Source: a virus
DNA: 37,451 nt
IMG/VR virus record: IMGVR_UViG_3300045988_125650
Location: 1-37,451 of that record
Strand: one strand, 5' to 3'
The position numbers and the translations under genes were made by a program. Of the stretch, positions 870 to 36,934 are shown piece after piece; the first letter of the stretch is position 1, and each line of letters begins with the position of its first letter. The notes below the pieces were generated by a model. That model saw only the letters and a list, made by a program, of their open reading frames with translations, had not been told where the DNA came from and ran no database searches.

Positions 870-1363
870 ACAATACCGAGCAAATAGAAACACCCTCTAA
901 AACGCCGTTTAAAGCCCCTCAGAGCGAAGATAACACAAAAAACGATAATGAACCCATTCAAGAGTTTTCAAGCCCACAGAACGCAAATAAAACGGTCGTG
1001 CCTTTCTTCAAGGATATGTGGGAAGACAGCGAAGAAACCGCCCTTACCGTGGGTATTCCAACCATAAAGGAATTCTGGAACACCACGCCTAAACAATTCA
1101 ATAAATATGTAAGGGCTTATCAACGAAGATTAACTGACATATTCAAGCTAACGGACATAAACAATCACCAACTCGGACTATATGTCAGAACTGCATACGC
1201 TGATGTATGGAGTGATAAAAACAAATACCCTAAAAAACCACAAATGATAGATTTGGACATCTTCCAGTTAGAAGAAAAAGAACCGTCTAAACGAAAACTC
1301 TCAGAACAAGAAGTTCAAGAGTTTCTCGAAAAACGAAGAAAAACAGACAGGAAAAATAAATAA
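597..1363 (+). CDS. Tail assembly chaperone gpGT fusion product made by a -1 frameshift at 857-863 (T-part 862-1363)
   Basis: The -1 frame is open from 851 (stop at 848-850) through 1363. This is the conserved G/GT arrangement upstream of tape measure genes in tailed phages. Confidence 0.55.
857..863 (+). promoter_or_regulatory. Slippery heptamer T_TTT_TTA for a -1 programmed ribosomal frameshift (G to GT)
   Basis: X_XXY_YYZ pattern in the zero frame of the 597 ORF, 2 codons before its stop. The -1 frame is open from 851 to 1363. Confidence 0.6.
897..998 (+). repeat. Dispersed composite repeat, copy 1 (inside the T-part of gpGT; translated ..KAPQSEDN..)
   Basis: A-motif GTTTAAAGCCCCTCAGAGCGAAGATAA plus B-motif AGCCCACAGAACGCAAATAAAACGGTC. 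Confidence 0.6.
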
Positions 1364-4167: not shown

Positions 4168-4539
4168 ATGACAAGAGTTTCTCAACAATTACTCAAAATA
4201 AATGGAATAGCAGTCGCTAACCCTAAAGAATACTCGGTGGAATACAACAAACTTTGGTCAAATGCAGGAAGAAATCTTGCTGGTCGAATGAGTGCCACTC
4301 TCGTGGGACTTTACCCTAAAATCAAGGTCAAAACCGCAATACAAGAGAAAGACGTTTTCGCTAGAATGGCTCAACTCTTGCAACTACCGCAGTTTAACGT
4401 GGAATACTATGACTTTATGTCGCAAACCACTCGCACTGGTATTTTTTACGCAAGTGATTTTGATATTAAATTAAAAGAACGAGAGCGAGGCTTAATTGAA
4501 GAAGTATCTTTTAGTCTTGTTCCTTATGATAAATATTAA
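4168..4539 (+). CDS. Hypothetical tail protein (123 aa). Possibly the N-terminal part of the downstream distal tail protein, separated from it by a single in-frame TAA.
   Basis: RBS AAAGGAATTAAAATG. Same reading frame as ORF 4576-6558, with only TAA plus 12 sense codons between them. Confidence 0.5.
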   Translation: MTRVSQQLLKINGIAVANPKEYSVEYNKLWSNAGRNLAGRMSATLVGLYPKIKVKTAIQEKDVFARMAQLLQLPQFNVEYYDFMSQTTRTGIFYASDFDIKLKERERGLIEEVSFSLVPYDKY

Positions 4540-4653
4540 CCTTATAACGCCGATACAAGCCCTAGGAGCGACTTTATGCTAAAACATACATCAGAATACC
4601 TTTCGGCAGTTAAACAGCGTTCTAAACGCCAGAAAACAGCCTTAGAATTGAAG
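4533..4653 (+). repeat. Dispersed composite repeat, copy 2 (spans the TAA between ORFs 4168 and 4576 and encodes the first ~25 aa of the Dit-like protein)
   Basis: TATAACGCCGATACAAGCCCTAGGAGCGACTTTA ... CAGCGTTCTAAACGCC ... GCCTTAGAATTGAAG. Confidence 0.6.
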
Positions 4654-11343: not shown

Positions 11344-11361
11344 TCATTTTAAACGCAACCG

Positions 11362-11466
11362 AAATAAAAGCCCTACAACGGGCTTTTTATGTTGGAATGG
11401 GTATTTTACCATTTTTTAATCTAAACTCGCTCAGAACGCAAGGAAATGGCCTTAGAATTGAAATTC
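11362..11466 (+). repeat. Dispersed composite repeat, copy 3 (includes the bidirectional terminator; the 3' end encodes the C-terminus of the VRR-NUC protein on the other strand)
   Basis: AAAGCCCTACAACGGGC ... TTTACCATTTTTT ... CTCAGAACGCAAGGAAATGGCCTTAGAATTGAA. Confidence 0.6.
11366..11388. terminator. Bidirectional intrinsic terminator (AAAAGCCC-TACAAC-GGGCTTTTT) between convergent genes
   Basis: GC stem flanked by an A-run and a T-run. Lies between the + strand ORF ending at 11343 and the - strand VRR-NUC gene ending at 11452. Confidence 0.6.
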
Positions 11467-13179: not shown

Positions 13180-13207
13180 AACAATCTCTGACTACTGTAA
13201 ATCAATT

Positions 13208-13326
13208 TTAAAGCCATTTACAAGCCCTACAAGCGACTTTAACACACGAAATGAATACTTTACCATTTTTAACGCTAAAAGCCCGTAGAACGCAAGGAAA
13301 TAGGCTTAAAACGCAAAATAACGCAA
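13208..13326 (+). repeat. Dispersed composite repeat, copy 4 (intergenic, after the replication gene)
   Basis: CATTTACAAGCCCTACAAGCGACTTTAA ... TTTACCATTTTTAACGCTAAAAGCCCGTAGAACGCAAGGAAATAGGCTTAAAACGCAA. Confidence 0.65.
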
Positions 13327-16021: not shown

Positions 16022-16441
16022 ATGGGAGTAATAACTTTAAACTCGGAAGAAATCATTAAACTTGGAACATCAGCATTAAACGCTATTCACGATGAACAAG
16101 CTGAAAGTGATTTAGCTAAACTCATTGAAATCAAAGATAGCATTGATAACTTTCTTGATACCGTAAAAAAGCAAATCCTTAAAGAAGTTATGGAGAAAAA
16201 TCCAAATGTTACGGCGTATCAAGGAAAACTCTTAAAAATGGAATTCAGAAAATACGGTTCAAAATACGCTATTAAAAAGGGACTTGATACTCTCGCAGTA
16301 GATAACGGTTTTGCAAAAGCTAAAACGACAATATCTTTAGACACAAAAGCTATAGATGATTATGTAGAAAACTCTGGTGTTTTGCCAGAATATATCGAAG
16401 AAAAAAATCGCCCTACAACCTTAACAATCAAGAAGATTTAA
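16022..16441 (+). CDS. Hypothetical protein (139 aa)
   Basis: RBS AAAGGAGAATAACAATG. Coupled to the ERF gene. Confidence 0.5.
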   Translation: MGVITLNSEEIIKLGTSALNAIHDEQAESDLAKLIEIKDSIDNFLDTVKKQILKEVMEKNPNVTAYQGKLLKMEFRKYGSKYAIKKGLDTLAVDNGFAKAKTTISLDTKAIDDYVENSGVLPEYIEEKNRPTTLTIKKI

Positions 16442-16478
16442 AAAATCTAAAAAATGTCTATAAAATGATAAAAATCTA

Positions 16479-16507
16479 TTGACTTTTCTTGTGTAAAATA
16501 TTATAAT
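16479..16507 (+). promoter_or_regulatory. Early promoter copy 3: TTGACT, 17 bp, TATAAT, plus conserved leader
   Basis: Near-identical cassette. Upstream ATCTAAAAAATGTCTATAAAA A-tract repeats. Confidence 0.6.
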
Positions 16508-16548
16508 GTAAATATAATCAATTAAACATACAAGGAAAGGAAAATAGT

Positions 16549-17169: not shown

Positions 17170-17547
17170 ATGGGACAAACTAAAGCAGGAGCAATTAAAG
17201 CACGACAAAAAATTATTGAACTTTACGGCGAAGACTTTTACGCTAAAGTCGGCAGAAAAGGTGGTAAAAATGGGACTACTGGAGGGTTCGCAAAAGACCG
17301 TGAATTAGCCAGTAAAGCTGGAAGAATTGGTGGATTAAAATCAAGACGCACTGATGTAGCAAGTAAATTCGAAATGAACGGTGAAATTCTAACAGCGAAA
17401 GAATGGCAGAAGAAATTAAATGTCAACCTTGCAACCGTTTATTCTTACGCAAAAAAAGGTAAACTGAAAAAAGTCGAAGAAGGACGCAAGAAAATCAACG
17501 TAGTCGCAAGTGAAACAATCCACGCTATCAAGTTAAGGAGTGCTTAA
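17170..17547 (+). CDS. KGG-repeat (stress-induced/Con-10-like) protein with a C-terminal HTH-like segment
   Basis: Repeated GRKGG / KAGRIGG motifs typical of the KGG stress-protein repeat. C-terminus LTAKEWQKKLNVNLATVYSYAKKG is HTH-like. RBS AAGGAGAATAACAATG. Confidence 0.45.
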   Translation: MGQTKAGAIKARQKIIELYGEDFYAKVGRKGGKNGTTGGFAKDRELASKAGRIGGLKSRRTDVASKFEMNGEILTAKEWQKKLNVNLATVYSYAKKGKLKKVEEGRKKINVVASETIHAIKLRSA

Positions 17548-21290: not shown

Positions 21291-21296
21291 TTATTG

Positions 21297-21509
21297 ATGA
21301 AAGGTGAAACTAAAGCACAAGGGTGGGCATTAAAATCTGGAGCAAAAGGACGCCCTAGTCCAGAAACGTTAAGGGAGCTGGGACTAAAAGTCGCTCAATA
21401 TTCAAAGGAGCACGGCATAGGCTTTAACAATCCAGAAACAGCAGAAAAAGCTCGACTAAAAGGACTTGAAACTCGCCGAAGGAACGCTAAGCTGAAAAAA
21501 TCAAAATAA
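21297..21509 (+). CDS. Small basic protein (70 aa), possible nucleic-acid binding
   Basis: Lys/Arg-rich. ATG at 21297 (track start is TTG 21294). Confidence 0.4.
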   Translation: MKGETKAQGWALKSGAKGRPSPETLRELGLKVAQYSKEHGIGFNNPETAEKARLKGLETRRRNAKLKKSK

Positions 21510-21535: not shown

Positions 21536-21586
21536 CTTTATAAATGAAAAAAGTCTAAAAAAGTATAAAAAAGTCTAAAAAAACTA

Positions 21587-21615
21587 TTGACTTTTATCGT
21601 GTAAAAATATATAAT
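21587..21615 (+). promoter_or_regulatory. Early promoter copy 4: TTGACT, 17 bp, TATAAT, plus conserved leader
   Basis: Near-identical cassette. Preceded by three AGTCTAAAAAA/AGTATAAAAAA repeats. Confidence 0.6.
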
Positions 21616-21657
21616 AGTAATATAAATAAATAATACATACGAAGGAAAGGAAATAGT

Positions 21658-24264: not shown

Positions 24265-24561
24265 ATGGACAACAAACAGCGGAAAAATCCGGATTTTCCT
24301 ACGAACTGCAAAATATGCGGTGGAATTTTAGACCCCCTACCATATTTTAATGACGTGAATGCTTATGAAGATGAGCAAGGAAGATTTTGCAAAGTATTAG
24401 CACGCTTTCCTAACGGAGAGCCACGAACCTTTGAATACACTTTAGCTTGCAGGAACAATCCTAACGAACACCCACAACTAAAAGTTGTTGAAACACCTTG
24501 CGTGGGTTTCAGAAGTGTCATTCGAGCAGATAAATATGATGTCAATAAATTAAAAATATAG
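24265..24561 (+). CDS. Zinc-finger protein (98 aa; CKICGG ... C..C)
   Basis: Cys pairs at the N-terminus plus internal Cys residues. Confidence 0.45.
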   Translation: MDNKQRKNPDFPTNCKICGGILDPLPYFNDVNAYEDEQGRFCKVLARFPNGEPRTFEYTLACRNNPNEHPQLKVVETPCVGFRSVIRADKYDVNKLKI

Positions 24562-24656
24562 CTATAACGCTGATAATCGCGTTCTAAGCGAAGATAAGTC
24601 AAAAGATATATTCGCTATCATCTTTTAAGTTAAAACGCCGTAGAACGCAAGGAAAC
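24557..24656 (+). repeat. Dispersed composite repeat, copy 5 (intergenic, upstream of the modification-like operon)
   Basis: TATAGCTATAACGCTGATAATCGCGTTCTAAGCGAAGATAAG ... AAAACGCCGTAGAACGCAAGGAAACGAGG. Confidence 0.6.
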
Positions 24657-24667
24657 GAGGAATAACA

Positions 24668-24952
24668 ATGAATAAAGAACAAGCAGAGAAATTTATTTCT
24701 AAACAAAAGTGGATTTTCGCTAAGACTTACGCTAAAACTGCACCACACGAGTATATAATGGTATTCCCTAACTCACCACACCGAAAGGAAGCCGAAGAGT
24801 TCTATCAGTTAATTCAAAAAGACGGCTATGTAAAAAAATTCTTCACCAAGGAATACAAATACATAGACATCGCTGGCTATAAATACTGGACAATGATCAG
24901 CAAAGATGGCTTTAATAAGGATTGGTCAATCAATAGGGAACCGTTAAAATGA
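24668..24952 (+). CDS. Hypothetical protein (94 aa), first gene of the modification-like operon
   Basis: RBS (G)AGGAATAACAATG. Stop overlaps the next start (AAATGAAAATC). Confidence 0.5.
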   Translation: MNKEQAEKFISKQKWIFAKTYAKTAPHEYIMVFPNSPHRKEAEEFYQLIQKDGYVKKFFTKEYKYIDIAGYKYWTMISKDGFNKDWSINREPLK

Positions 24953-25506
24953 AAATCATAGTCAAAGCAGTCAAAGAACGAGAACCATATGTAAATATCA
25001 TCAAGCAGGAAATTCCAGAAGTCATAGTTGTCTGGGACAAAAAAAAGGATGCAATGGACACTTATCTTCGAGCATTAAAAACAGCAGGAGATGAAGCAAC
25101 TATTCAGCTGGAAGATGATATTGAGCTAACCACAAATTTTACTCAAAAGGCAACTTCAATCATTTCAGAAGTCAAAGAAAAACACGGCGACATCGCTATT
25201 CAATTTTTCTCAATGAGAAAAGCGGACATTGAAATTGGAAGCAGACTAGAAAATGGAAGCTCATACTTAATGGCACAAGCCACCTACCTACCACCAGGAA
25301 TGGCAAAAGACTTCCTACAATGGACTAACAATATCAATTTGGAGGAATATGGCAATGGAGTAGATGAATTATTCGGAGATTATCTCAAATCAAACAAATT
25401 GAAATATTGGATTGCAGTTCCTTCATTAGTTCAACACCGAAAAATAAAATCAGCAATCGACCCAAGGCGTTCATCAGCCAGACAATCGAAAACCTTTCAG
25501 AAATAA
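24949..25506 (+). CDS. Putative GT-A-fold (family 25-like) glycosyltransferase-like protein (185 aa)
   Basis: N-terminus MKIIV...REPYVNIIKQ and a DxD-like LEDDIEL resemble the GT25/Lic2A family. Weak, from memory. Confidence 0.3.
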   Translation: MKIIVKAVKEREPYVNIIKQEIPEVIVVWDKKKDAMDTYLRALKTAGDEATIQLEDDIELTTNFTQKATSIISEVKEKHGDIAIQFFSMRKADIEIGSRLENGSSYLMAQATYLPPGMAKDFLQWTNNINLEEYGNGVDELFGDYLKSNKLKYWIAVPSLVQHRKIKSAIDPRRSSARQSKTFQK

Positions 25507-25527
25507 TAAGAAATAAGGAGAAATAAA

Positions 25528-26028
25528 ATGGAAAATGAAAAAATTATTCGTGTAGTAAAATCAACTGGAATTGGCAACAATTCACTCGGAGCTTTCGACA
25601 ATGCACTCTTTAATGCAGGTGTTCATAATTACAACCTTATCAGACTTTCGAGCGTTGTTCCAGAAGGATACACAGTTGTAAAATCAGACGGAAAAGCTCT
25701 CACAGACGGAAAATGGGGCGACAAACTCTATGTCGTTATGGCCATTCAACACGCAGATAAACCAGGGGAAGAGGCTCACGCTGGAATTGGCTGGGCGTAT
25801 GATAAAAACAATCCAGAACACGGACTATTCGTGGAACACGAAGGCACAAGCCTTGAATACGTGGAAACAGCTATTCGCACAAGCCTTAAAGACCTTTTTG
25901 AAAGCCGAGGCTTAGAGATGGGAGAAATTGATATGATTACTTCTTCAATCAAATGCGAAGATAAACCAGTAGTAGCATTTTGTGTATCAGCATTCGAGGC
26001 ACAAGGCTGGAATAACTTGCGAGGTTAA
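25528..26028 (+). CDS. Pyruvoyl-dependent arginine decarboxylase (PvlArgDC/PdaD/AaxB)-like protein
   Basis: 166 aa, the typical size. The stretch LGAFDNALFNAGVHNYNLIRLSSVVP closely matches the PvlArgDC core (archaeal PdaD [23 protein letters not shown], recalled from memory), including the Ser-Ser self-cleavage site. Confidence 0.65.
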   Translation: MENEKIIRVVKSTGIGNNSLGAFDNALFNAGVHNYNLIRLSSVVPEGYTVVKSDGKALTDGKWGDKLYVVMAIQHADKPGEEAHAGIGWAYDKNNPEHGLFVEHEGTSLEYVETAIRTSLKDLFESRGLEMGEIDMITSSIKCEDKPVVAFCVSAFEAQGWNNLRG

Positions 26029-26029
26029 A

Positions 26030-27163
26030 ATGGCTACTCGACTATACAAAACAACCGACGTATTCGAAGAAGGGCTCAACCGAATGCGGTGGCTCTTCGA
26101 AGAGTTCAATAACAATGTATGCGTGAATTTTTCTGGTGGAAAAGATAGCACCGTTGTTCTTAATTTAGCACTTATGGTGGCAAGAGAAAGAAACGCCCTA
26201 CCTTTAAAGGTATTCTTCCTTGACCAAGAAGCAGAATGGCAAGCTACAATCGACGAAATCAAAGCGGTTATGTATGACCCAGAAGTCGAGCCGTATTGGT
26301 TTCAAGTTCCTTTCAAAATGGAAAATTCAGCCTCAACCGAAGGAAAATGGCAGAAAATCTGGGGCAAAGGTGAAGAGTGGATTAGACCACAAGACCCTAT
26401 CTCAATTAAAGACATTGGTTATGATACTTCCGACTTAGAGTTTTACGACTTATTCTCACATTTTCTGGACTGGAAATTCCCAAAAACTAAAGCGTGTTTA
26501 GTGGGAGGGGTTCGAGCTGAAGAAAACCCTAACCGTGCGTTGGGGCTAACTCGTATGGCTACCTACAAATGGATTACGTGGGGCAAAAAAACTGAAATGG
26601 CTAAAAACGCTAAAATTCACTTCACCTTTTACCCAATTTATGACTGGACTTACGCTGATGTATGGAAAGCTATCGCAGACAATAACTGGCGATATTGCAA
26701 GATTTACGACAAACAGTATCAATATGGCTATAACATTCAAAATATGCGAGTATCATCATTGCACCATTCGACGAGCCTATCTTCACTTTACTCATTACAA
26801 GAACTAGAACCAGAAACTTACGAGGCAATCGTTCATCGAATGAGTGGAGTAGATACCGTAGGAAAACTCGGAAAAGAAGACCACTATGTCAAAGACTTAC
26901 CTTTTATGTTCACAGACTGGGTGGAATACCGAGATTATCTTTTGGAAAACTTAATTAAAAGGGAAGATGAAAAAGAAATCTTCAGACACGCTTTTGAAAA
27001 ATTTGATAACAAATATTCGAAGTATATTGATATGGAGAGAATTGCTCAACTCGAGATAACTTGCATTATATCGAATGACTTATATATGGTTAAATTAAAA
27101 AACGCTGAGAGACACCACGACTTCATCGCAGCGGATAAAAGGAGAATTGCAGAAAATGGTTAA
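26030..27163 (+). CDS. IbrA/DndC-like PP-loop ATP pyrophosphatase (PAPS-reductase fold with DUF3440-like C-terminal domain)
   Basis: PP-loop motif VNFSGGKDSTVVL. A ~200-aa extension after the PAPS-reductase core. ATG at 26030 with RBS GAGGT (the track start at 25982 overlaps the upstream gene). Confidence 0.75.
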   Translation: MATRLYKTTDVFEEGLNRMRWLFEEFNNNVCVNFSGGKDSTVVLNLALMVARERNALPLKVFFLDQEAEWQATIDEIKAVMYDPEVEPYWFQVPFKMENSASTEGKWQKIWGKGEEWIRPQDPISIKDIGYDTSDLEFYDLFSHFLDWKFPKTKACLVGGVRAEENPNRALGLTRMATYKWITWGKKTEMAKNAKIHFTFYPIYDWTYADVWKAIADNNWRYCKIYDKQYQYGYNIQNMRVSSLHHSTSLSSLYSLQELEPETYEAIVHRMSGVDTVGKLGKEDHYVKDLPFMFTDWVEYRDYLLENLIKREDEKEIFRHAFEKFDNKYSKYIDMERIAQLEITCIISNDLYMVKLKNAERHHDFIAADKRRIAENG

Positions 27164-27815
27164 AATAGAAGACTTCACACAAAAACACACAATCGAAGAA
27201 GACCGCCCTATATACAAGGTGGACAATTCCACGCTACCGGAACAAGTGAGGCACAACGCTTGTGCAAATATCTGTTTCATTCCTATTGAAAAGGTTCAAG
27301 CTAACGACTACAACCCTAACGCAGTGGCAACTCACGAAATGAAACTTCTTTATGTTTCTGTTAAAGCGGACACCTACACAATGCCCGTAGTTACCATTTA
27401 CGACCCAGAAATTAAGAAGTATGTCATCATTGATGGTTTCCACCGATACTCAACAATGCGAAGAAACAAAGACATTTATGAAATGAATGACGGTTATCTT
27501 CCTTGCGTAGTCCTAGACAAAAACATTAATGAGCGAATGGCTTCCACAGTTCGCCACAATCGAGCAAGAGGCAAACACTCAGTAAATGGAATGTCTACAA
27601 TCGTTTTCGAGATGTTAAAAAATGGCAAAACAGATGAACAAATCTGTAATGAACTTGGACTTGAAGTCGAAGAACTTGTTCGCCTAAAACATATCACTGG
27701 CTACTCTAAACTCTACCAGAATGTCCAATACTCTAAAGCGTGGGAAACGGACAATCAAATTGAAATAAAACGCAAATACAAGCAGGAGCACCCAGATGAG
27801 CAAATCACAATCTAA
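27147..27815 (+). CDS. ParB/Srx-fold (ParB N-terminal domain) protein, IbrB/DndB-like
   Basis: DGxHR-type motif IIDGFHRY, HNRARG. Overlaps the IbrA-like stop. Confidence 0.7.
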   Translation: MQKMVKIEDFTQKHTIEEDRPIYKVDNSTLPEQVRHNACANICFIPIEKVQANDYNPNAVATHEMKLLYVSVKADTYTMPVVTIYDPEIKKYVIIDGFHRYSTMRRNKDIYEMNDGYLPCVVLDKNINERMASTVRHNRARGKHSVNGMSTIVFEMLKNGKTDEQICNELGLEVEELVRLKHITGYSKLYQNVQYSKAWETDNQIEIKRKYKQEHPDEQITI

Positions 27816-28428
27816 GGACACGAAGTCAAAAGACACAAAGTTAAAGAAGATTAAACTTTCTAAAATTAAGCCGTATAATCTCAATGCACGAGATAATAAC
27901 AAATACGCAGTTCAAGCCGTAGTAGAAAGTATTAAACGCTACGGCTACACAAACCCAATCATCGTTGATGAAAAGAATGTTATCATTGCTGGACATACAC
28001 GCTACCTTGCACTTAAGGAATTAAATTTTGATGAAGTGGAAGTTATCGTATCAAAGATGAGTGAAGATGAAGCTAAAGAATACCGTATCATCGACAACAA
28101 AACTAACGAGCTATCGCAGTGGGATGAGAAAAATCTTCAGTTTGAATTACGAGAATTTGAACAAAGGGACTACGCTCAAGAACTATTCCCAGAAATCAAG
28201 GACAATATCAAAATTCAAGACACCACGGAGTATGATATTGATGAGAAAGATTTTGAAAGAATTGAGAAAAAACTCGGAGAAGATTTTGAAGAAAAGATGA
28301 ACAAAAAAACTTCATCTGATGACTTTCTGGAAATCAAGTGTCCGCACTGTGGCAGAACATTCTTAATGCCAATTCCAGACCTACTGCACAAATTCAAAAT
28401 TGAAAAATTAAACAGGGAGCAAGAATAA
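27796..28428 (+). CDS. ParB N-terminal-domain protein with C-terminal zinc ribbon (paralog A)
   Basis: Motif IIAGHTRYLA; KEYRIIDNKTNE; C-terminal CPHCG. Overlaps neighbouring genes. Confidence 0.65.
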   Translation: MSKSQSKDTKSKDTKLKKIKLSKIKPYNLNARDNNKYAVQAVVESIKRYGYTNPIIVDEKNVIIAGHTRYLALKELNFDEVEVIVSKMSEDEAKEYRIIDNKTNELSQWDEKNLQFELREFEQRDYAQELFPEIKDNIKIQDTTEYDIDEKDFERIEKKLGEDFEEKMNKKTSSDDFLEIKCPHCGRTFLMPIPDLLHKFKIEKLNREQE

Positions 28429-28976
28429 TGATTTCAAAGAAAACAGTCCATATTGATGAAATTGTTCCATACTGGAGAAACCCACGAGATAACAACGAGA
28501 ACGCTATCATAGCAGTCGCTAAGTCTATTGAAAAGTTTGGTTATCAAGCTCCAATCCTCGTGGATAGTAAAATGACAATTATTGCTGGACACACACGCTA
28601 CAAAGCATTACGCAGATTACGCACTGAATACGTAGAAGTTGTAGTATCAGATATGTCGCAAAAACAAGCCAAGGAATACCGCATTGTAGATAACCGAACA
28701 AACGAGTATTCTAACTGGATTATTGATAATGTTCTTGCTGAATATGAGGAAATCAAAGCCCCAGACCTTCTGGATGATTTATTCCCAACTATTCGTGGCA
28801 AAGAAGAAATCGAAGAACAAGAAGAAGAATATATTTCACCACGAGAGCAAGCTAAAACACTCACAATCGAAGACAATGATTATATTGAAATAATCTGCCC
28901 TAACTGTTTTAATGGATTTGAAATGACCTACAAGGAGTTTAAAAAACTCTGTAAAGAGCAGAATAAAAAATTCTAA
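28428..28976 (+). CDS. ParB N-terminal-domain protein with C-terminal zinc ribbon (paralog B; tandem duplicate of 27796-28428)
   Basis: Motif IIAGHTRYKA; KEYRIVDNRTNE; C-terminal CPNC. The start overlaps the upstream stop (TAATGA). Confidence 0.65.
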   Translation: MISKKTVHIDEIVPYWRNPRDNNENAIIAVAKSIEKFGYQAPILVDSKMTIIAGHTRYKALRRLRTEYVEVVVSDMSQKQAKEYRIVDNRTNEYSNWIIDNVLAEYEEIKAPDLLDDLFPTIRGKEEIEEQEEEYISPREQAKTLTIEDNDYIEIICPNCFNGFEMTYKEFKKLCKEQNKKF

Positions 28977-28997: not shown

Positions 28998-29489
28998 ATG
29001 GCAACTAAAATACCACTTTCAAGAATACCGTCTGCACCAAAAGTGAAACCAAAAAAGAACAGTGGGCGTGGCTATCACCCAGACGGCACACCCTACAATC
29101 CAACTGGAAAAGGTGGCTTCGGAGACAATCCACAGAACCGAGCTAACGGACACTGGGACAGTAAAATGACCCCAAGCTTTCAATACAAACGCTTTTTGAA
29201 TATGGACAGTGCCTCACTTATTGAATACGCTAAACAATGGAGAATTATTCAATTAAACAAAACCGAAATCAAAAGCGGAAAATATGATGGAGAATTCCCC
29301 CACACCGTGGTGGAAGAAATGGCACTTCGCCGAGTTCTTGCTGGTATGAAAAGCCTTGCAGATGTGAAAGAAATAACAGACCGTGTTGAGGGGCGAGCTA
29401 CCTACAAAGTCGAACAGAAAATTGAACACGACTTCGCCAACTACTCAAGCGAAGACCTTGAAAAACTTGCGAGAAGCTTAAATGAATAA
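28998..29489 (+). CDS. terS: Terminase small subunit (putative)
   Basis: 163 aa, immediately upstream of and overlapping the large terminase gene. Basic N-terminus. Confidence 0.55.
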   Translation: MATKIPLSRIPSAPKVKPKKNSGRGYHPDGTPYNPTGKGGFGDNPQNRANGHWDSKMTPSFQYKRFLNMDSASLIEYAKQWRIIQLNKTEIKSGKYDGEFPHTVVEEMALRRVLAGMKSLADVKEITDRVEGRATYKVEQKIEHDFANYSSEDLEKLARSLNE

Positions 29490-30891
29490 CGAACAACTTG
29501 CACTCATAAGCATTGAACTGGCGATTAGGAAAAGTCGCCAGTCTTTTCTATGGTTTGTCAAAAATGTTTTTTCGGCATCTTTTGGATTGAATGAATTCGT
29601 GTATGGAAAATACATTGAAGAAGTCATTACGGGAATGGAAGAACACAAATGGACTATGGACGTTTCAGCTCGAGACCACTTCAAAAGCACACGCTTATAC
29701 GCAGAAGTTATGTATGATTTATTCACCACTCAAACCGACCTAGAATGTAGATACTTTTCTTACCAAGCTGGAATGAGTGGCTACCACCTAGGAAAAATCA
29801 AGCGTATGATTGAACAAAATCCATTCTTCCACCCTAAAATGTTCATAGACCAAAGCCCTACATCTTTATCTGTATTACGCTACACAACACCTAACGGAGC
29901 TATTTATGAAGCAAGACCAGAAGGACTACTCTCATTTAAACGTGGTATTCACGCTGAACGCATTTACGTGGACGACCCACTTAAAGACCCAGAGAACAAA
30001 CTCGCACCGACAGTCATTCATAAAATCAATAATGTTATCAAGCTGGAAATCTTCCCAATGGTGAAAAAAGGTGGCTACTATCGTGTTGTTGGAACACCAC
30101 AGACAAATCACGACTTTTTCTTTGATAAAGGACTTCAGAGAAGACTTCACACAAACATTCGCCCAGCTATTAAAAGTGAAAAGAAAAAAGAAGTTATCTT
30201 TCCAGAATGGAAATCATACGAGGAATTAAATGATATTCGCAAAACCATTGGGGAGAAAGCTTTCAATCAGGAATATATGACTAAACCTGCATATAGTGAA
30301 AATTCTTATATTGAGAGAAAAGACCTTAACAAATGCGTAGATATTGAACTTGAAGACTTCGACAATAAGCCTTACTCACGCCCAGAGGGTGTAGATATTG
30401 TGGCAGGATTTGATATTGGTAAAAAAGCACACCCTAGTCATTTTGCTATTTTCGAGAGAACAATCAATCCAGAAACAAATCAATATCAATATAAACAAAT
30501 TCACCAGAAGTTTTTAGACCACGTGGAATACAAAGACCAAGTGGAATATATCAACCTCGCAGTGGAAAAGTATGAAATAGACATTCTACGCTATGACAAC
30601 ACCAGAGCGGAATTTGAAGCATTCGCAGAACAACAACTCTTACCTAACTGTATGATACCTGTTCAATTCAATATACGAACTAACAACCTTATGGCAGTTA
30701 GTCTTAATAAAGTCATTCAAGAAGAACGAGTTAAATTCATAGATGAAGAAAGACAAATAGACCAAATTCTTCAAGTCAATAATGAATTAAAAGCAATCGA
30801 AAGCCCACTGGGACACGGAGATAGTTTTTGGAGCAACGCCTTAGCTTTATACGAAGAAAAACCAAAAGAATATAGTATCAGGTTCTTATAA
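29482..30891 (+). CDS. terL: Terminase large subunit
   Basis: 469 aa. N-terminal ATPase and C-terminal nuclease region (VVGTPQTNHDFFFDKG, DIVAGFDIG). Position before the portal gene. Confidence 0.8.
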   Translation: MNNEQLALISIELAIRKSRQSFLWFVKNVFSASFGLNEFVYGKYIEEVITGMEEHKWTMDVSARDHFKSTRLYAEVMYDLFTTQTDLECRYFSYQAGMSGYHLGKIKRMIEQNPFFHPKMFIDQSPTSLSVLRYTTPNGAIYEARPEGLLSFKRGIHAERIYVDDPLKDPENKLAPTVIHKINNVIKLEIFPMVKKGGYYRVVGTPQTNHDFFFDKGLQRRLHTNIRPAIKSEKKKEVIFPEWKSYEELNDIRKTIGEKAFNQEYMTKPAYSENSYIERKDLNKCVDIELEDFDNKPYSRPEGVDIVAGFDIGKKAHPSHFAIFERTINPETNQYQYKQIHQKFLDHVEYKDQVEYINLAVEKYEIDILRYDNTRAEFEAFAEQQLLPNCMIPVQFNIRTNNLMAVSLNKVIQEERVKFIDEERQIDQILQVNNELKAIESPLGHGDSFWSNALALYEEKPKEYSIRFL

Positions 30892-30907: not shown

Positions 30908-31017
30908 TATATAGCCGTATAACGCCGATACAAGCCCCACAAGCGACTTTAAACTCAAAAAGGCATACAAACTCATCTTTTGAATAAAAACGCCATACAA
31001 CGCAAATATAACGGTCA
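30908..31017 (+). repeat. Dispersed composite repeat, copy 6 (intergenic, between terL and the portal gene)
   Basis: TATAGCCGTATAACGCCGATACAAGCCCCACAAGCGACTTTAAAC ... AAAACGCCATACAACGCAAATATAACGGTC. Confidence 0.65.
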
Positions 31018-31025
31018 AACAAGCA

Positions 31026-31054
31026 GTGTAAAACATTCTCAAATGTGATATACT
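31026..31054 (+). promoter_or_regulatory. Candidate promoter: GTGTAA ... TG-A-TATACT, copy 2, upstream of the portal gene
   Basis: Same TGTGATATACTTAAA 15-mer as at 24216-24230. Confidence 0.35.
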
Positions 31055-31106: not shown

Positions 31107-33332
31107 ATGAATTTTGGACAAAGGCTTAAGAGTTTTTTCTCAGCACCAACCACAACTCAACCATTGACGAACCTTGATTATTCACCGAACCGAGCCAAGA
31201 AGTTCAAAACTAAAGATGAACAAATCAGAGCTAACATTGGGTGGGTATTCGCTGCATCGCAACTCATCTCAGATGATTGTTCCACGCAAGAGATAGAATT
31301 ATGGAAGAAACTTCCAGATGGAACAGAAGAACAAGTTTTCCAGCACGAGATTTTGGAACTCTTAAATGACCCTACAAGTCTTATGACACCAAGGCAACTT
31401 TGGAGTTTATACTATCAATACCTAAACCTTACGGGTGAAACCTACCTACTCAAACTGGACAAACAAGGCAAACCTATCACTAACAATGCACAACTTCCAG
31501 CGGCACTGTTCCCACTACCAAGTCATATGTGTGAACTCAAGCTCAATAATGATGATTACAATAAATCAGTGATTGTCTTTAATGGACAAGAATTCACTCT
31601 AGACCAAGTTATTAGAGATATTAACCCAGACCCAGAGAATATCTTTAAGGGACTTTCAGTTATTTCAAAAGTATCATTAGCAGTAGATACAGATGAAAGA
31701 ATGAAAAACTGGAATAATAAACTCTTCATCAATGGAGCAAGACCAAGCTTAGCACTCGAAGTGCCAGGGGAATTATCAGAGAAGAATTTCGAAAGATTAA
31801 ATCAACAGATTAAGGAAAGATTTGTAGGGGACGAAAATACCTTTAAACATATCATTTTAGAGAATGGAATGAAGGTCAATCCTTATATGATGAACCAGCA
31901 AGACTTGGACTTTCTATCATCAAGAGAATTTACACGTGATGAAATCCTTTCATTCTTTAAACTCTCAAAAGCGAATCTTGGAATTGTAGATGATGTCAAT
32001 CGAGCTAACAATGAAGCTCAAGAATACCGCTATGCAAAACAAGTGATTAAACCACGCATTGAACAATTCGCAGACATTATCAACCGAAGACTTATCAAAC
32101 CAGTATATGGAACAGAATTCTTTATTCGTTTTAAAAATCCTATACCAGAAGATAAAGATAGAATTCTTCAAGAAGCACAAGCAGGTATTAACAAATGGCT
32201 TACAATCGATGAAGTCCGTGAAGTATATGGCTATGAAGCACTTCCAGATGGAGCAGGTCAAGAGATTTACACACAATTAAACCAAATTAAACTCTCAGAC
32301 CTAAATGATATATCTCAAAACACCCCACAGGACGTCGATACAAGCCCTCAGAGCGAAGATAAACCAGAAGATGATAAAGATACCCCAAATGAAGATAACT
32401 CGCAAGGAAACACGCCAAACGCTGAGCAAAGCGAAGAAGAAGATAAAGAAGACAAGAACCTTGAAGCTGAAATTCAAGATGAAACTCTCATCAAAAAGCG
32501 AGCTATTGGAAATAATAAAATTCAACGTAGGACAATCCAAGCCAAACGTTATGAAAAGAAACTTCTTAAAACCAGCAGAAAGATGTTCGATAGACAAAAA
32601 TCACAAGTCTTAAACTGGCTAGAACATAATAAACCTACAAATGAAAAACAATATCAAAAAGCCTTAATCCAGAAAATCAAAACCAAGGACTGGGCAGATG
32701 AAATGATAGACTGGGACAAAGAACAAGAATTATTCCAGCAAGATATAGCAACTATTCAAAGAACCATTATTGAAACAGTGGGACTTGAAGAATATAACGC
32801 TTTAATCTCAAATGATGATAAAAACTTCAATTCTAACGCACCGTCAATAGATAAATTCATTTTAGACACTTCTGAATTAGCAAGCCTAACAATCACAGAT
32901 GAAACAAAGGAACAAATCAAAGCAACACTATCAGAAGCAATCCATAATGGAGAAACTCTAAATGAAATGACAGCAAGGGTCGAAGAAACCTTTGGAACAA
33001 TGGCCACTAAAAGAGCTCAAATGATAGCTCAAACCGAAGTAGCCACAGCCCTTAATCAAGCAGACATAGAAGCGTGGACACAAACCGAACTTGTAGAAGC
33101 AAAGGAGTGGTTCACTGGCGAAGATGAAAAAACTTGCGGTTATTGTCAATCAATGGATGGAAAAATAATCTCTCTTGAAGGTAAGTTCTTTCATAAAGGA
33201 GATAAAATAGAGTTCGAAGATACACACGAACACTCACATCATATGAACCTTGACTATAAGGACATCACAGCTCCACCTATTCACCCACACTGTAGATGTG
33301 CATTGCTACCGGTATTAAAAACTCTTGAATAA
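31107..33332 (+). CDS. Portal protein fused to a C-terminal MuF-like (SPP1 gp7-type) head-morphogenesis domain
   Basis: 741 aa. The N-terminal ~400 aa are portal-like. The acidic low-complexity linker (aa ~408-450) is encoded by a dispersed-repeat copy. The C-terminus (MIAQTEVATALNQADIEAW ... CGYCQSMDG) is MuF-like. Confidence 0.75.
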   Translation: MNFGQRLKSFFSAPTTTQPLTNLDYSPNRAKKFKTKDEQIRANIGWVFAASQLISDDCSTQEIELWKKLPDGTEEQVFQHEILELLNDPTSLMTPRQLWSLYYQYLNLTGETYLLKLDKQGKPITNNAQLPAALFPLPSHMCELKLNNDDYNKSVIVFNGQEFTLDQVIRDINPDPENIFKGLSVISKVSLAVDTDERMKNWNNKLFINGARPSLALEVPGELSEKNFERLNQQIKERFVGDENTFKHIILENGMKVNPYMMNQQDLDFLSSREFTRDEILSFFKLSKANLGIVDDVNRANNEAQEYRYAKQVIKPRIEQFADIINRRLIKPVYGTEFFIRFKNPIPEDKDRILQEAQAGINKWLTIDEVREVYGYEALPDGAGQEIYTQLNQIKLSDLNDISQNTPQDVDTSPQSEDKPEDDKDTPNEDNSQGNTPNAEQSEEEDKEDKNLEAEIQDETLIKKRAIGNNKIQRRTIQAKRYEKKLLKTSRKMFDRQKSQVLNWLEHNKPTNEKQYQKALIQKIKTKDWADEMIDWDKEQELFQQDIATIQRTIIETVGLEEYNALISNDDKNFNSNAPSIDKFILDTSELASLTITDETKEQIKATLSEAIHNGETLNEMTARVEETFGTMATKRAQMIAQTEVATALNQADIEAWTQTELVEAKEWFTGEDEKTCGYCQSMDGKIISLEGKFFHKGDKIEFEDTHEHSHHMNLDYKDITAPPIHPHCRCALLPVLKTLE
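32334..32416 (+). repeat. Dispersed composite repeat, copy 7 (inside the portal gene; translated ..DTSPQSEDKPEDD...NSQGNTP..)
   Basis: GTCGATACAAGCCCTCAGAGCGAAGATAAACC ... ACTCGCAAGGAAACACGCC. Confidence 0.6.
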
Positions 33333-35297: not shown

Positions 35298-35321
35298 TCC
35301 ACTAACAGATTATTCAAATTA

Positions 35322-35346
35322 AGCCCTATTGACGGGGCTTTTTTTG
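35322..35346 (+). terminator. Intrinsic terminator after the capsid gene (AGCCC-TATTGAC-GGGGCT + T7)
   Basis: GC stem followed by TTTTTTT. Confidence 0.7.
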
Positions 35347-35544
35347 TGGCTTATAATTAGCACGGTGGGCAAAATGTTTTTGCAGTTCATTAAAAATTGT
35401 AGCACCTACACATCGTAAATTTTTCATAATCCCAATTATTAATGTTTCTTGAACCAACCTGTTTTTTATTTTATTATTAGTAAATCTTTTGATTATTTGA
35501 TATATAATATTACCAAAACAAAAATTCTTATAAAGCTCACCACC

Positions 35545-36150: not shown

Positions 36151-36467
36151 TGAGAACTAACAGACTTATTCACAGAGCCACCATATACAGAAAGCAACAA
36201 ATCGAAGGTAAAGGAAAAACTTCAAGGTTCCAAACTATCTACGACGAAGTCCCTTGCTTAGTTGTTCCTACTAGTCCAAGAGATGCCCTTAATCGAAACC
36301 TTTCGGTGGGCAAGGAATACAGCGTTTTCTTTAATGATAATCAAGACCTTAAAAAAGGTGATAGAATTGAAGCACTCAACCTTAACCTTTCAGTGGCAGG
36401 CATAGCTGAATATAAACATATTCCCCGCATTGGCCATTTACAAGCCGTCTGTGAGACAATAGAATAA
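36150..36467 (+). CDS. Head closure / head-tail joining protein
   Basis: 105 aa. Coupled start (ATAATG). Conserved position. Confidence 0.55.
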   Translation: MRTNRLIHRATIYRKQQIEGKGKTSRFQTIYDEVPCLVVPTSPRDALNRNLSVGKEYSVFFNDNQDLKKGDRIEALNLNLSVAGIAEYKHIPRIGHLQAVCETIE

Positions 36468-36487
36468 GAAAGGTATAAATACTCAAA

Positions 36488-36934
36488 ATGAGAGTTAAAA
36501 TCGATGACACAGCCGTTAAACAGGCTCTGAGCGTAGCTCCCAAGGAAATGACTAAATCCCTTGAAACTATCATTCAGAGAACCGCCCTAAAAATCCAAAG
36601 AGAATTTACTAAAAACATCAATAAGGGACAGACTGGCTTCGCAAGGAACAACATCGCTATTGAAAAACCGAATAGGTTAGCTACTACAATTTACCCAAGG
36701 GCAAGATATGCGGACTTTCTGGAAACTGGAACTCGCCCTCACTGGACAAGTATTCAAAACATCGAGGGTTATGCAAGGTTTAGAGGCATAAACCCTTACG
36801 CCCTACAGCGCAGTATCGCACGCAAAGGAACAAAGGCTCATCCATTCCTTAATAAAACCTACCGCAAAGCTCGCACAGACTTTATCAACGACGTAAATAC
36901 TCAAGCCCAAAAAACTATAGATAGGAGCATTTAA
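36488..36934 (+). CDS. HK97 gp10-family tail component
   Basis: 148 aa. The ...KAHPFLNKTYRK region is typical of the gp10 family. Confidence 0.55.
   Translation: MRVKIDDTAVKQALSVAPKEMTKSLETIIQRTALKIQREFTKNINKGQTGFARNNIAIEKPNRLATTIYPRARYADFLETGTRPHWTSIQNIEGYARFRGINPYALQRSIARKGTKAHPFLNKTYRKARTDFINDVNTQAQKTIDRSI

What the first reader, a model, noticed from the sequence alone, without database searches (positions are those of the whole stretch)
30908..31017. Seven copies of a ~100-bp composite dispersed repeat placed at gene and domain junctions
Seen in sequence: copies sit at 897-998, 4533-4653, 11362-11466, 13208-13326, 24557-24656, 30908-31017 and 32334-32416. Each has an A-part (consensus roughly TATAACGCCGATACAAGCCCYACAAGCGACTTTAA, with variant CAGAGCGAAGATAA) and, 40-60 bp downstream, a B-part (AAAACGCCGTAGAACGCAAGGAAAT(G/A)GCCTTAGAATTGAA or ACGCAAATAWAACGGTC). 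Both parts share the core TAGAACGC/GCGTTCTA, which occurs in either orientation. Placement is non-random. Copies lie in the T-extension of gpGT; at the stop and restart between the 123-aa and 660-aa tail ORFs; over the convergent terminator at the VRR-NUC gene end; after the replication gene; before the modification operon; between terL and the portal gene; and exactly at the portal/MuF fusion linker. Three copies are translated in frame, and two of these give the same SPQSED peptide. This looks like a mobile or recombinogenic module-boundary element (MITE-like, or recognition sites for a phage DNA-binding protein such as the ParB paralogs) rather than ordinary promoters. No comparable element in siphoviruses comes to mind.
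Basis: seen in the sequence. Interest (0 to 1): 0.85.

Follow-up and report, generated by a model that had tools for sequence, protein, structure and literature searches.

The report
Dispersed two-box phage DNA cassette
A roughly 110-bp stretch of DNA, related to a conserved non-coding element of Bacillus phages, has been copied to seven gene and domain junctions of this uncultured phage, and at the two copies that could be tested it changes more slowly than silent sites, so it most likely serves as a protein-binding platform rather than being junk or an ordinary promoter.

Summary
The repeat is real. All seven loci lie on the + strand, and each is recovered by a model built from the other six (E 1e-5 to 1e-17). 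It is less uniform than described. The A box is significant in five copies and the B box in three to five. The "B half" at 4578-4653 is the ancestral N-terminal coding sequence of a tail protein. The core is a 16-17-nt bipartite site, AAsSCC-N4/5-AAsGCr, present twice in direct orientation and held 58 nt apart. Relatives at ≤66% TerL identity lack the cassette and have tight junctions or shorter linkers at the same places. Closer relatives keep it at orthologous sites. In the two copies with an 83%-portal-identity orthologue it evolves more slowly than 4-fold sites, and copies exchange patches by gene conversion. It has no terminal inverted repeats, no conserved RNA fold and no Rfam match. The copy beside the replication-initiator gene is homologous over its full length to a single-copy non-coding element in the terminal repeats of about 100 Bacillus myoviruses. 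My best reading, at 0.4 confidence, is a DNA-level protein-binding platform that was multiplied in this lineage. The binding protein is unknown. The portal-MuF fusion and the split tail gene were not caused by the repeat.

The parts
13196..13326 (+). Archetype copy (c13208), 17 nt after the stop of the replication-initiator gene. Sites: A1 13210-13221, A2 13222-13230, A3 13231-13242, T/A-tract centre 13259-13279, B1 13279-13288, B2 13289-13308, and two extra AACGCA hexamers at 13310-13326.
   Evidence: It has the best leave-one-out score (1.3e-17) and both boxes are significant. It is homologous over its full length to the Bacillus Bastillevirinae terminal-repeat element: z = 14.4, and a model built from Bacillus phages only gives E = 4e-4.
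11351..11466 (+). Copy c11362. The A part has been replaced or reshaped into a bidirectional terminator hairpin (11366-11387). Centre 11405-11426; B1/B2 11427-11462. The 3' end overlaps the last 5 codons and the stop of the minus-strand VRR-NUC gene (11452-11847).
   Evidence: Middle plus B box E = 4.4e-9; A box not significant. Terminator found by the scan. VRR_NUC Pfam hit.
24554..24657 (+). Copy c24557, filling the 106-bp gap between the 98-aa gene (its stop TAG lies in the element's 5' end) and the 94-aa gene (ATG at 24668). A1 24565-24576; A2 variant GCGTTCTA 24577-24586; A3 24587-24597; centre 24615-24634; B1/B2 24634-24656.
   Evidence: B box E = 1.6e-6. Orthologous 98-aa genes in L018 and L259 are followed by the next gene after 22-23 bp.
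30912..31018 (+). Copy c30908, between the terL stop (30891) and an extended -10 promoter (TGTGATATACT, 31044-31054) upstream of portal. A1 30920-30931; A2 30932-30940; A3 30941-30952; centre 30971-30989; B1/B2 30989-31016.
   Evidence: A box E = 1.8e-6. The orthologue in L017 is 72% identical against 49% at 4-fold sites, with no indel inside the element and four in the flanks. The terL-portal gap is 53-173 bp in element-free relatives.
32320..32416 (+). Copy c32334, translated in frame in the acidic portal-MuF linker (about residues 405-437 of the 741-aa protein). A1 32330-32341; A2 32342-32351; A3 32352-32362; B2 32398-32411. The centre is missing, and there is a 9-nt deletion relative to L015 and L017.
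   Evidence: A box E = 1.7e-3. The linker is longer than in relatives. Against L017 it is about 91% identical at the nucleotide level, with synonymous differences in 2 of 23 codons against 41% gene-wide, while the rest of the linker is 38-58% identical.
887..998 (+). Copy c897, translated in frame in the -1 frameshift (T) extension of the tail chaperone, between the slippery site (GGTTTTTTA, 850-858) and the conserved FK(D/E)xW motif. A1 900-910; A2 911-922; A3 923-933; centre 953-969; B1/B2 970-997.
   Evidence: A box E = 2.4e-3; B box E = 0.066. The extension is 165 codons against 117-122 in L018, L259 and L260. The B1 segment was replaced by a c30908-type sequence in relative L015, which is gene conversion.
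4538..4578 (+). Copy c4533, A box only. It is a roughly 40-nt insert between the stop of the 123-aa gene (4537-4539) and the ATG (4576) of the 660-aa tail gene. Its A3 segment supplies the ribosome-binding site and start codon (AGGAGCGACTTTATG).
   Evidence: A box E = 4e-8. L018 has the two genes abutting. The RBS-ATG part is kept in the 70%-identity relative L262 while the 5' half is degenerate.
4579..4653 (+). Not part of the repeat.
   Evidence: Not significant as a B box (E = 2.7). The N-terminal motif M[IL]xx[ST]xx[FY]xxA[MV]KxxxK is shared with distant homologues at the same offsets.

Best explanation
The seven loci are paralogous copies of a roughly 110-bp cis-acting DNA cassette that I think works at the DNA level as a platform for a sequence-specific protein complex.

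Architecture (shown). There is one half-site (AACGCC), followed by two direct copies of a 16-17-nt bipartite site (AAsSCC-N4/5-AAsGCr). The two copies are held 58 bp apart around a T-tract/A-tract centre.

History (shown). The archetype is the copy just downstream of the replication-initiator gene. It is homologous to a single-copy non-coding element in the iteron-rich terminal repeat of Bacillus Bastillevirinae phages. After this siphovirus lineage split from relatives with ≤66% TerL identity, the cassette spread to six further permissive places. These are very short intergenic junctions and two disordered inter-domain linkers, where it is translated in frame. Since then the copies have stayed at orthologous sites. 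They exchange patches by gene conversion, and two were co-opted locally: one as the RBS and start codon of the tail gene, and one as a terminator for convergent genes.

Function (inferred). The phased hexamers and the fixed spacing mark contacts for a multimeric DNA-binding protein. I favour a host factor shared among Bacilli, because the two phage groups share no candidate protein among those compared. The alternative is a phage protein such as the initiator. Under this reading the dispersed copies give the genome several loading or occupancy sites, comparable to dispersed operators, stoperators, centromere sites or accessory origin sites. The way the cassette spread (illegitimate or annealing-mediated copy-paste, possibly through the phage Erf-like recombinase) is also inferred.
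For: Reality of the repeat and its architecture.
- All 11 adjacent hexamer pairs spaced 9-11 nt lie inside the copies and none lies elsewhere.
- The AGCGA-to-ACGCAA distance is exactly 58 nt in five window copies and in the L015 and L017 orthologues, 59 in c4533, and 57 in the L015 and L017 portal-linker copies.

Gain in this lineage:
- Element-free relatives L018, L259, L260 and L001 give no HMM hit.
- They have tight junctions or shorter linkers at every comparable site.

Constraint, window against L017:
- 4-fold sites are 49% identical (99/202).
- The intergenic copy is 72% identical (79/110, p about 1e-6), with no internal indel but four in the flanks.
- The portal-linker copy is about 91% identical, with synonymous changes in 2 of 23 codons against 244 of 598 gene-wide, while amino-acid identity there is not higher than average.

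Gene conversion: the B1 segment of L015's c897 copy equals the window's c30908 B1 over 22 nt, through 7 clustered changes.

Evidence for DNA rather than RNA:
- There is no consensus fold. Folding z-scores range from -1.9 to +2.3.
- There are no Rfam hits even at E ≤ 5.
- In Bacillus phages the homologous element points away from the nearest gene, so it is not part of a sense mRNA there.

Deep homology:
- The c13208 copy against Nigalana gives z = 14.4.
- A model built only from Bacillus phages gives E = 4e-4.
- The 58-nt spacing is the same.
- The element is present in 101 Bacillus phage records, amid at least 10 AATTGTCAGAATATT iterons.
Against: - No binding protein has been identified. The initiator and two other window proteins tested (13363-13776 and 17170-17547) have no homologue in the Bacillus phages.
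- A purely DNA-level site does not require the 7 of 7 sense orientation seen here.
- Between the window and its 94%-identical relative the copies are slightly more diverged (8.1%) than the rest of the genome (5.5%), partly because of conversion tracts.
- The constraint estimate rests on only two orthologous copies against one relative. Recombination patches of low divergence exist elsewhere in the portal gene, so the linker signal could be such a patch.
- The two coding copies lack a good centre, and c4533 has only the A box. The "platform" is therefore incomplete in 3 of 7 copies.
- The 5' half of the A box is degenerate in L262.
Confidence: 0.4

Rival explanations
1. It is a selfish, MITE-like, non-autonomous mobile element that invaded this phage lineage. 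It survived only at tolerated sites (junctions and disordered linkers) and is now immobile and decaying, with no function for the phage.
For: Insertion-like extra DNA at each comparable site relative to four element-free relatives. Uniform orientation and uniform length. In-frame tolerance in linkers, as seen for Rickettsia palindromic elements. MITEs shared between phages and hosts are documented (PMC11602168).
Against: No terminal inverted repeats, no conserved subterminal hairpins and no recognisable target duplications. Paralogues are only 60-80% identical. Every orthologous site examined in L015, L017 and L262 is occupied. Orthologous copies evolve more slowly than 4-fold sites and keep their spacing. 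There are no matches on 72,556 plasmids. The Bacillus homologue is single-copy and conserved. No transposase is encoded among the proteins scanned.
Confidence: 0.2
2. It is an RNA-level cis element carried on the phage transcripts, for example a linear protein- or sRNA-binding site. It would affect processive antitermination, mRNA processing or stability, or translation at cistron and domain junctions.
For: 7 of 7 copies are in the sense orientation. Four copies are less structured than shuffled controls, which suits single-stranded recognition. The B box ends in the phage's own Shine-Dalgarno-like AAGGAAA, and the A box supplies the RBS at 4566-4578. Constraint at synonymous sites inside a coding linker fits an mRNA signal equally well. 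The A3 segment GCGACTTTAACA weakly resembles boxA. That resemblance is from my own knowledge and was not tested.
Against: No conserved secondary structure or covariation. No Rfam family. The homologous Bacillus-phage element is oriented away from annotated genes. The C>G skew is too modest for a Rho-utilisation site. Position relative to start codons is inconsistent: 0, 12, 37 and 90 nt, or internal to a gene.
Confidence: 0.15
3. These are recombinogenic module-boundary linkers. They would be conserved sequences that serve as homology patches for exchanging gene modules between related phages.
For: Copies sit at functional boundaries. Two direct copies flank the VRR-NUC plus replication module. 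One sits at the left edge of the modification-gene cassette, which differs between relatives. Copies demonstrably recombine with one another. The phage encodes an Erf-like annealing protein.
Against: No identity breakpoints coincide with the copies in a 22-kb comparison with L015. Element-free relatives show that the family shuffles modules without the cassette. This idea does not explain the fixed internal spacing or the homology to a single-copy Bacillus-phage element.
Confidence: 0.1
4. These are promoter cassettes for an alternative sigma factor or a phage activator, for example a sigma-28/SigD-like TAAA-N15-GCCGATAA motif at the 5' end of the A box.
For: The only two full matches to the motif in the genome are in c4533 (TAAA-15-GCCGATAC) and c24557 (TAAA-14-GCTGATAA). 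The c30908 copy has the -10 part. Four copies precede gene starts.
Against: The GATA part of the motif is not conserved in orthologues (GCCGTTCC in L017, GCGATTTAA in L262) or in the other copies. Standard sigma70 and extended -10 promoters already serve these operons. The host is unknown and may lack this sigma factor.
Confidence: 0.07

Closest known systems
Conserved non-coding element in the long terminal repeat of Bacillus Bastillevirinae phages (e.g. Nigalana KU737344 1153-1303, BPS13, B4, BigBertha). As far as I could find, it is uncharacterised.
   Same: Sequence homology over about 110 nt to copy c13208: the upstream TGT(C)AAATC(A/T)ATTTTAAAGCC, the AAGCCC(G)TAC-AGCGA box, a second AGCCCGTAsA...GGAAATAG box, and identical 58-nt spacing of the two boxes. 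Both are non-coding and sit in a region likely to handle replication or early control.
   Different: It is single-copy per terminal repeat, not dispersed. It is never in coding sequence and points away from the nearest gene. The centre differs (CCTAGTATTTGTATTAGG). The phages belong to a different family (Herelleviridae myoviruses of about 160 kb), and no candidate protein among those compared is shared.
Stoperators of Cluster A mycobacteriophages (L5, Bxb1)
   Same: Many asymmetric sites dispersed through early and late operons of a siphovirus, mostly in short intergenic spaces and predominantly in one orientation relative to transcription (PMC6550527, PMC9283540).
   Different: Stoperators are single 13-bp sites bound by a known immunity repressor of a temperate phage. 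Here the unit is a 110-bp two-box array. No repressor or integrase was found among the proteins scanned. Two copies are inside genes.
Start-associated sequences with extended SAS (SAS/ESAS) of Cluster K mycobacteriophages
   Same: A two-part dispersed repeat in a siphovirus, almost all copies in one orientation, associated with unrelated genes, conserved between subclusters, function unknown. The SAS includes the ribosome-binding site (PMC3203893), as the A box does at 4566-4578.
   Different: The SAS lies immediately upstream of start codons, and the ESAS is a 17-bp inverted repeat. Here only two copies abut a start codon, the boxes are direct repeats 58 nt apart, and two copies are translated.
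MITEs and Rickettsia palindromic elements
   Same: Roughly 100-bp non-coding repeats that appear as extra DNA at many sites. RPEs also insert in frame into protein-coding genes (e.g. PMC1166351, PMC1458961). Phage-host shared MITEs are known (PMC11602168).
   Different: There are no terminal inverted repeats or palindromic structure, no presence/absence polymorphism among close relatives, and there is sequence constraint.
Higher-order nucleoprotein sites built from phased short repeats around a bendable centre: the P1 pac site, iteron origins, and the dispersed centromere sites of N15 (from my own knowledge, not tested here)
   Same: Helically phased hexamers on both sides of an A/T-tract centre with fixed spacing. 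One copy lies next to the initiator gene. The N15 sites are also scattered over the phage genome.
   Different: The resemblance is in architecture only. There is no sequence similarity, no demonstrated binding, and seven copies are more than a pac site or origin needs.

Membership tests
MITE (DDE-transposase-mobilised) | Terminal inverted repeats | tested here: not met
   Best end-to-end inverted matches are 4-14 nt, differ between copies, and have shuffle p values of 0.03-0.97.
MITE (DDE-transposase-mobilised) | Presence/absence polymorphism among close relatives, and near-identical copies | tested here: not met
   All comparable sites are occupied in L015/L016 (97%), L017 (83%) and L262 (70%). 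Paralogues are only 60-80% identical.
MITE (DDE-transposase-mobilised) | Cognate transposase or parent IS, and copies in the host genome | tested here: inconclusive
There are no plasmid matches. The host is unknown.
IS200/IS605-derived PATE or REP-like element | Conserved subterminal hairpins | tested here: not met
   No consensus structure. Fold z-scores are not significant. Only c11362 has strong hairpins, and these are terminators.
Known RNA families (Rfam 15) | Match to a covariance model | tested here: not met
   No hits at gathering thresholds and none at E ≤ 5 over the whole window.
Stoperator / dispersed operator sites | Dispersed asymmetric sites in one orientation relative to transcription | tested here: met
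   7 of 7 on the + strand with the genes; 5 of 7 in intergenic spaces.
Stoperator / dispersed operator sites | Cognate repressor encoded by the phage and binding the sites | not testable with these tools
   No repressor or integrase was found among the proteins scanned. Binding cannot be tested in silico.
SAS/ESAS (Cluster K) | Site a few bases upstream of start codons, with an inverted-repeat extension | tested here: not met
   Distance from the element's end to the next ATG is 0, 12, 37 or 90 nt, or the copy is internal to a gene. The boxes are direct, not inverted.
Sigma70 promoter | -35/-10 hexamers with 16-18-nt spacing at a conserved place in the element | tested here: not met
   The consensus scan finds no shared promoter inside the copies. 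Good promoters lie elsewhere: 10930, 14270, 16479, 21587, 35329, and an extended -10 at 31044.
Intrinsic terminator | GC-rich hairpin followed by a T run | tested here: not met
   Present only in c11362 (11366-11387). The other A boxes have lost the 3' arm (AAGCCCTACAAGCGAC against AAGCCCTACAACGGGC).
Bastillevirinae terminal-repeat non-coding element | Full-length sequence homology with conserved box spacing | tested here: met
   For c13208: z = 14.4, Bacillus-only HMM E = 4e-4, spacing 57-58 against 58. The other six copies relate to it only through c13208 (c897 E = 0.36).
Replication origin (iterons plus A/T-rich region next to the initiator gene) | Initiator binding and unwinding | not testable with these tools
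   The architecture and the position of c13208 are compatible. A separate 24-nt tandem repeat inside the rep gene (12437-12484) is an alternative origin candidate.

The most novel reading that the evidence does not exclude
An ancient cis-acting DNA element of Firmicute phages, recognised by a still unknown (probably host) factor, has been multiplied in one siphovirus lineage into a genome-wide set of binding platforms. Copies are embedded in frame inside structural-protein linkers and held there by selection on the DNA rather than on the protein. That would be a new kind of dispersed control or organising site in phage genomes, and a case of coding sequence constrained by a non-coding function.
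Probability: 0.25. Interest if true: 0.75.

Novelty: new variant of a known kind. Interest (0 to 1): 0.6.

Why it matters
Dispersed, orientation-locked repeats in phage genomes (stoperators, SAS/ESAS) are few, and most remain unexplained. This one adds three unusual features:
- a fixed two-box geometry shared with a conserved element of unrelated Bacillus myoviruses;
- spread into tight gene junctions and, in frame, into protein linkers;
- suppressed synonymous change inside a coding linker.

If a host or phage factor binds it, that factor would link a large, almost unannotated family of human-associated phages to the well-studied Bacillus phages. It would also give a handle on how both groups organise replication or expression. 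The work also corrects the idea that the repeat created the portal-MuF fusion or split a tail gene.

Tried and rejected
- **RNA structure.** Single-sequence folds, RNAalifold and Rfam at two thresholds gave nothing.
- **Terminal inverted repeats.** None found.
- **Rho-utilisation site.** The C>G skew is modest and the copies are not outliers.
- **Sigma-28-like promoter.** There are two good matches, but the motif is not conserved in orthologues.
- **Antisense or CII-like promoter reading of the minus strand.** Considered on sight and found inconsistent between copies. The minus-strand promoter-like site at 31032-31005 is not conserved in L017.
- **ParB link.** ParB_N genes are also present in element-free relatives.
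- **Module-exchange breakpoints.** None seen against L015.
- **Public collection scans.** The A-box pattern scan of viral contigs gave only chance hits plus the Bacillus phages. My composite pattern was too loose for the genome and metagenome scans.
- **Finding intermediate relatives.** The search with the 123-aa protein returned only two proteins.
- **Looking for a shared binder.** tblastn of the initiator, the gene downstream of c13208 and the HTH_17 protein found no homologue in Bacillus phages.
- **Host MITE check on plasmids.** Negative.
Full report
**Context.** The window is a circularly assembled phage genome of 37,396 bp; its first 55 bases repeat at the end. Almost all genes are on the + strand. 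It encodes:
- HK97-type head genes;
- a portal-MuF fusion;
- a tail module with a G/GT frameshift;
- an Erf-like recombinase;
- a DnaD-like replication initiator;
- a DNA-modification-like module: pyruvoyl arginine decarboxylase, a glucosyltransferase-like protein, PAPS reductase with DUF3440, and three ParB_N proteins.

Identical or near-identical contigs come from human-associated and sewage metagenomes. No close relative exists among 50,697 deposited phage genomes. The large terminase has no tblastn hit there at all. Lysis and tail proteins point to a Firmicute host.

- Diagnostic patterns are far above shuffle expectation: 4 matches against 0.09, and 5 against 0.97.
- In leave-one-out tests each of the seven copies is found by a profile of the other six, with E between 1e-5 and 1e-17, and nothing else in the window scores comparably.
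- All seven copies are on the + strand.

Tested part by part, however, the "composite" falls into two boxes.
- The A box is significant in c4533, c30908, c13208, c32334 and c897.
- The middle plus B box is significant in c13208, c11362 and c24557. It is marginal in c897 and not significant in the rest.
- The supposed B half of the copy at 4533 is the first 26 codons of the 660-aa tail protein. Its N-terminal motif is shared, at the same offsets, with many distant homologues found in an exhaustive search. It is ancestral coding sequence, not repeat.
- The shared peptide of the two fully translated copies is PQSED.

**Anatomy.**
- The conserved core is a hexamer of the type AA(C/G)GCC.
- All 11 neighbouring hexamer pairs spaced 9-11 nt lie inside the copies, and none lies in the other 36.6 kb.
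- The hexamers form a 16-17-nt bipartite site (AAsSCC-N4/5-AAsGCr) that occurs twice per element in direct orientation.
- The distance from AGCGA to ACGCAA is exactly 58 nt in five window copies and in the L015 and L017 orthologues. It is 59 nt at 4533.
- In the portal-linker copy it is 57 nt in both L015 and L017. The window's own copy has lost 9 nt.
- Between the two sites lies a T-tract/A-tract centre (CATCTTTT-N6/7-AAAAC), whose sequence is otherwise poorly conserved among paralogues.
- There are no terminal inverted repeats, no consensus RNA fold or covariation, and no Rfam match even at E ≤ 5.
- Only the copy at 11362 contains real terminator hairpins.

**Comparative evidence: gain.** The portal-MuF fusion is shared by more than a hundred protein clusters from 33-40-kb phage contigs, so the repeat did not create it. 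Four relatives at 47-66% identity (L018, L259, L260, L001) give no hit to the repeat profile. At every comparable place they are tighter than the window:

| Site | Element-free relatives | Window |
|---|---|---|
| terL-portal gap | 53-173 bp (L001 has an extra small ORF here) | 215 bp |
| Gap after the orthologous ~100-aa gene | 0-23 bp | 106 bp |
| G-T extension | 117-122 codons | 165 codons |
| Portal length | 700-735 aa | 741 aa |
| 123-aa gene to the large tail gene | genes abut (L018) | ~40-nt insert carrying the RBS |

In the G-T extension the extra residues fall exactly between the slippery site and the conserved FKxxW motif. In the portal the extra length lies in the linker. The split into a 123-aa gene and a large tail gene is therefore ancestral. 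Closer relatives keep the copies at the same sites: L015/L016 at 97% portal identity, L017 at 83%, and L262 at 70% identity in the 123-aa protein. The cassette was thus gained after the split from the 66%-TerL relatives and has been retained since.

**Comparative evidence: constraint and conversion.** Between the window and L017:
- 4-fold degenerate sites of the portal gene are only 49% identical (99/202).
- The intergenic copy upstream of portal is 72% identical (79/110, p about 1e-6). It has no internal indel, while its flanks have four.
- The copy in the portal linker is about 91% identical. Only 2 of 23 same-amino-acid codons differ, against 244 of 598 gene-wide. Its amino-acid identity is not above average, and the rest of the linker is 38-58% identical.

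This pattern is what selection on the nucleotide sequence produces. The caveat is that other low-divergence patches exist in the gene, so a recombination patch is not excluded.

Between the window and the 94%-identical L015, the copies are slightly more diverged than the rest (8.1% against 5.5%). Part of this is a clear gene-conversion tract: seven clustered changes make the B1 segment of L015's G-T copy identical over 22 nt to the terL-portal copy. All four combinations of the two A3 variants and the two B2 variants occur among the copies. This again indicates exchange between them. No identity breakpoints coincide with the copies.

**An unexpected relative.** A sensitive blastn of the copy at 13208 hit Bacillus myoviruses, which the earlier pattern scan had also picked up.
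- The full alignment covers the upstream flank, the A box and the B box. Its score is 14 standard deviations above shuffles.
- A profile built only from four Bacillus phage sequences finds 13196-13306 as the best hit in the window (E = 4e-4), and the G-T copy second.
- The two boxes are 58 nt apart in Nigalana and B4.
- In the Bacillus phages the element is single-copy per long terminal repeat and is present in 101 records, 77 of them covering at least 80% of the query at 74-100% identity.
- It lies in a 1.3-1.6-kb non-coding stretch packed with at least 10 AATTGTCAGAATATT iterons, and it points away from the nearest gene.
- It is not found on plasmids.
- The two phage groups share neither the initiator nor the other two window proteins tested.

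The window copy with this homology is the one placed 17 nt after the replication-initiator gene, and it is also the most complete. I take it as the archetype.

**Interpretation.** Shown:
- This is a real paralogous family with a fixed two-box geometry.
- It was gained in this lineage at tight junctions and in two disordered linkers.
- It is retained at orthologous sites.
- Its rate of change is reduced relative to 4-fold sites in two orthologous comparisons.
- Copies undergo gene conversion.
- One copy was co-opted as an RBS and start codon, and one as a terminator.
- It is deeply homologous to a Bacillus-phage non-coding element.

Inferred: it acts as DNA, as a platform for a multimeric sequence-specific protein. 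The arguments are these:
- the hexamers are phased;
- the spacing is constant across paralogues whose centres have diverged;
- there are no RNA features;
- the Bacillus homologue is not in a sense transcript.

The binder is most simply a host factor common to Bacilli, because no candidate phage protein among those compared is shared. The initiator, the ParB_N proteins, TerS and an HTH_17 protein remain candidates. I put this at 0.4. The main rivals are:
- an immobilised selfish element (0.2), argued against by the missing MITE hallmarks and by the constraint;
- an RNA-level signal (0.15), favoured by the 7 of 7 sense orientation and the Shine-Dalgarno-like tail;
- recombination linkers (0.1);
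- alternative-sigma promoters (0.07).

**Comparison with known systems.** By behaviour the nearest are the stoperators of Cluster A mycobacteriophages and the SAS/ESAS repeats of Cluster K. Both are dispersed, orientation-locked repeats in siphoviruses (PMC6550527, PMC9283540, PMC3203893), so comparable elements do exist. The cassette is a member of neither. It is not a 13-bp single site with a known repressor, and it is not tied to start codons. It fails the defining tests for a MITE. The only family to which one copy can be assigned by homology is the uncharacterised Bastillevirinae terminal-repeat element.

**Verdict.** I classify it as a new variant of a known kind, namely dispersed cis-acting repeats of phage genomes. 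It is of moderate to high interest because of the cross-family homology, the fixed geometry, and the in-frame copies that appear constrained at the DNA level.

Noticed in passing
L264:1490-1640 (Bacillus phage Nigalana KU737344 1153-1303); also L265, L266, L268: A conserved 150-nt non-coding element in the long terminal repeats of about 100 Bastillevirinae phages. It is embedded among at least 10 AATTGTCAGAATATT iterons and has no annotation in the five records inspected. It is homologous to window copy c13208.
   Followed up: partly
window 10891-10976, 14231-14316, 16440-16525, 21548-21633: Four copies of an 86-nt early-promoter cassette with near-consensus TTGACA-17-TATAAT, preceded by AAAAAGTCTAAAAAA-type repeats. 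This is a second repeat family, distinct from the one studied.
   Followed up: no
window 12437-12484: Two tandem 24-nt units (AAAAAACTAAATCCTCTGAACCTA) inside the replication-initiator gene, encoding a repeated KKTKSSEP peptide. They are candidate origin iterons.
   Followed up: no
window 24668-28976: A gene cassette encoding a 94-aa protein, a glucosyltransferase-like protein, pyruvoyl-dependent arginine decarboxylase, an IbrA-like PAPS reductase with DUF3440, and three ParB_N proteins (two with C-terminal CxxC motifs). It suggests DNA hypermodification. Relatives replace the first genes with SAM-synthetase-like and methyltransferase genes.
   Followed up: partly
window 29482-30891: The large terminase has no Pfam domain and no tblastn match in 50,697 deposited phage genomes, yet it has hundreds of metagenomic homologues. 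This marks a large, uncharacterised phage family.
   Followed up: partly
window 31107-33332: The portal and MuF (head-morphogenesis) domains are fused in one 741-aa protein. The fusion is conserved across more than 100 protein clusters, with a hypervariable acidic linker.
   Followed up: yes
window 36420-36530: A weak possible eighth, eroded copy of the repeat at the junction of two head-tail connector genes (E 5e-4 to 0.7, depending on the model).
   Followed up: partly
L001 8528-8552, 11263-11287, 16397-16421: A 65%-TerL relative carries its own three-copy 25-nt cassette with an extended -10 promoter (GTGATACAATAAAACCAACAAyGAA), one copy just upstream of portal. This suggests that repeated late-promoter cassettes recur in this phage family.
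   Followed up: no
window 35321-35357: A terminator (AAGCCCTATTGACGGGGCTTTTTTT) after the capsid gene has a TTGACG-17-TATAAT promoter overlapping its stem. The stem shares the AAGCCCTA start of the A box.
   Followed up: no
window 17170-17547 and 21294-21509: Two small basic proteins with KGG-type stress-protein-like repeats, one fused to an HTH_17 (excisionase/AlpA-type) domain. They are possible DNA-binding regulators.
   Followed up: no
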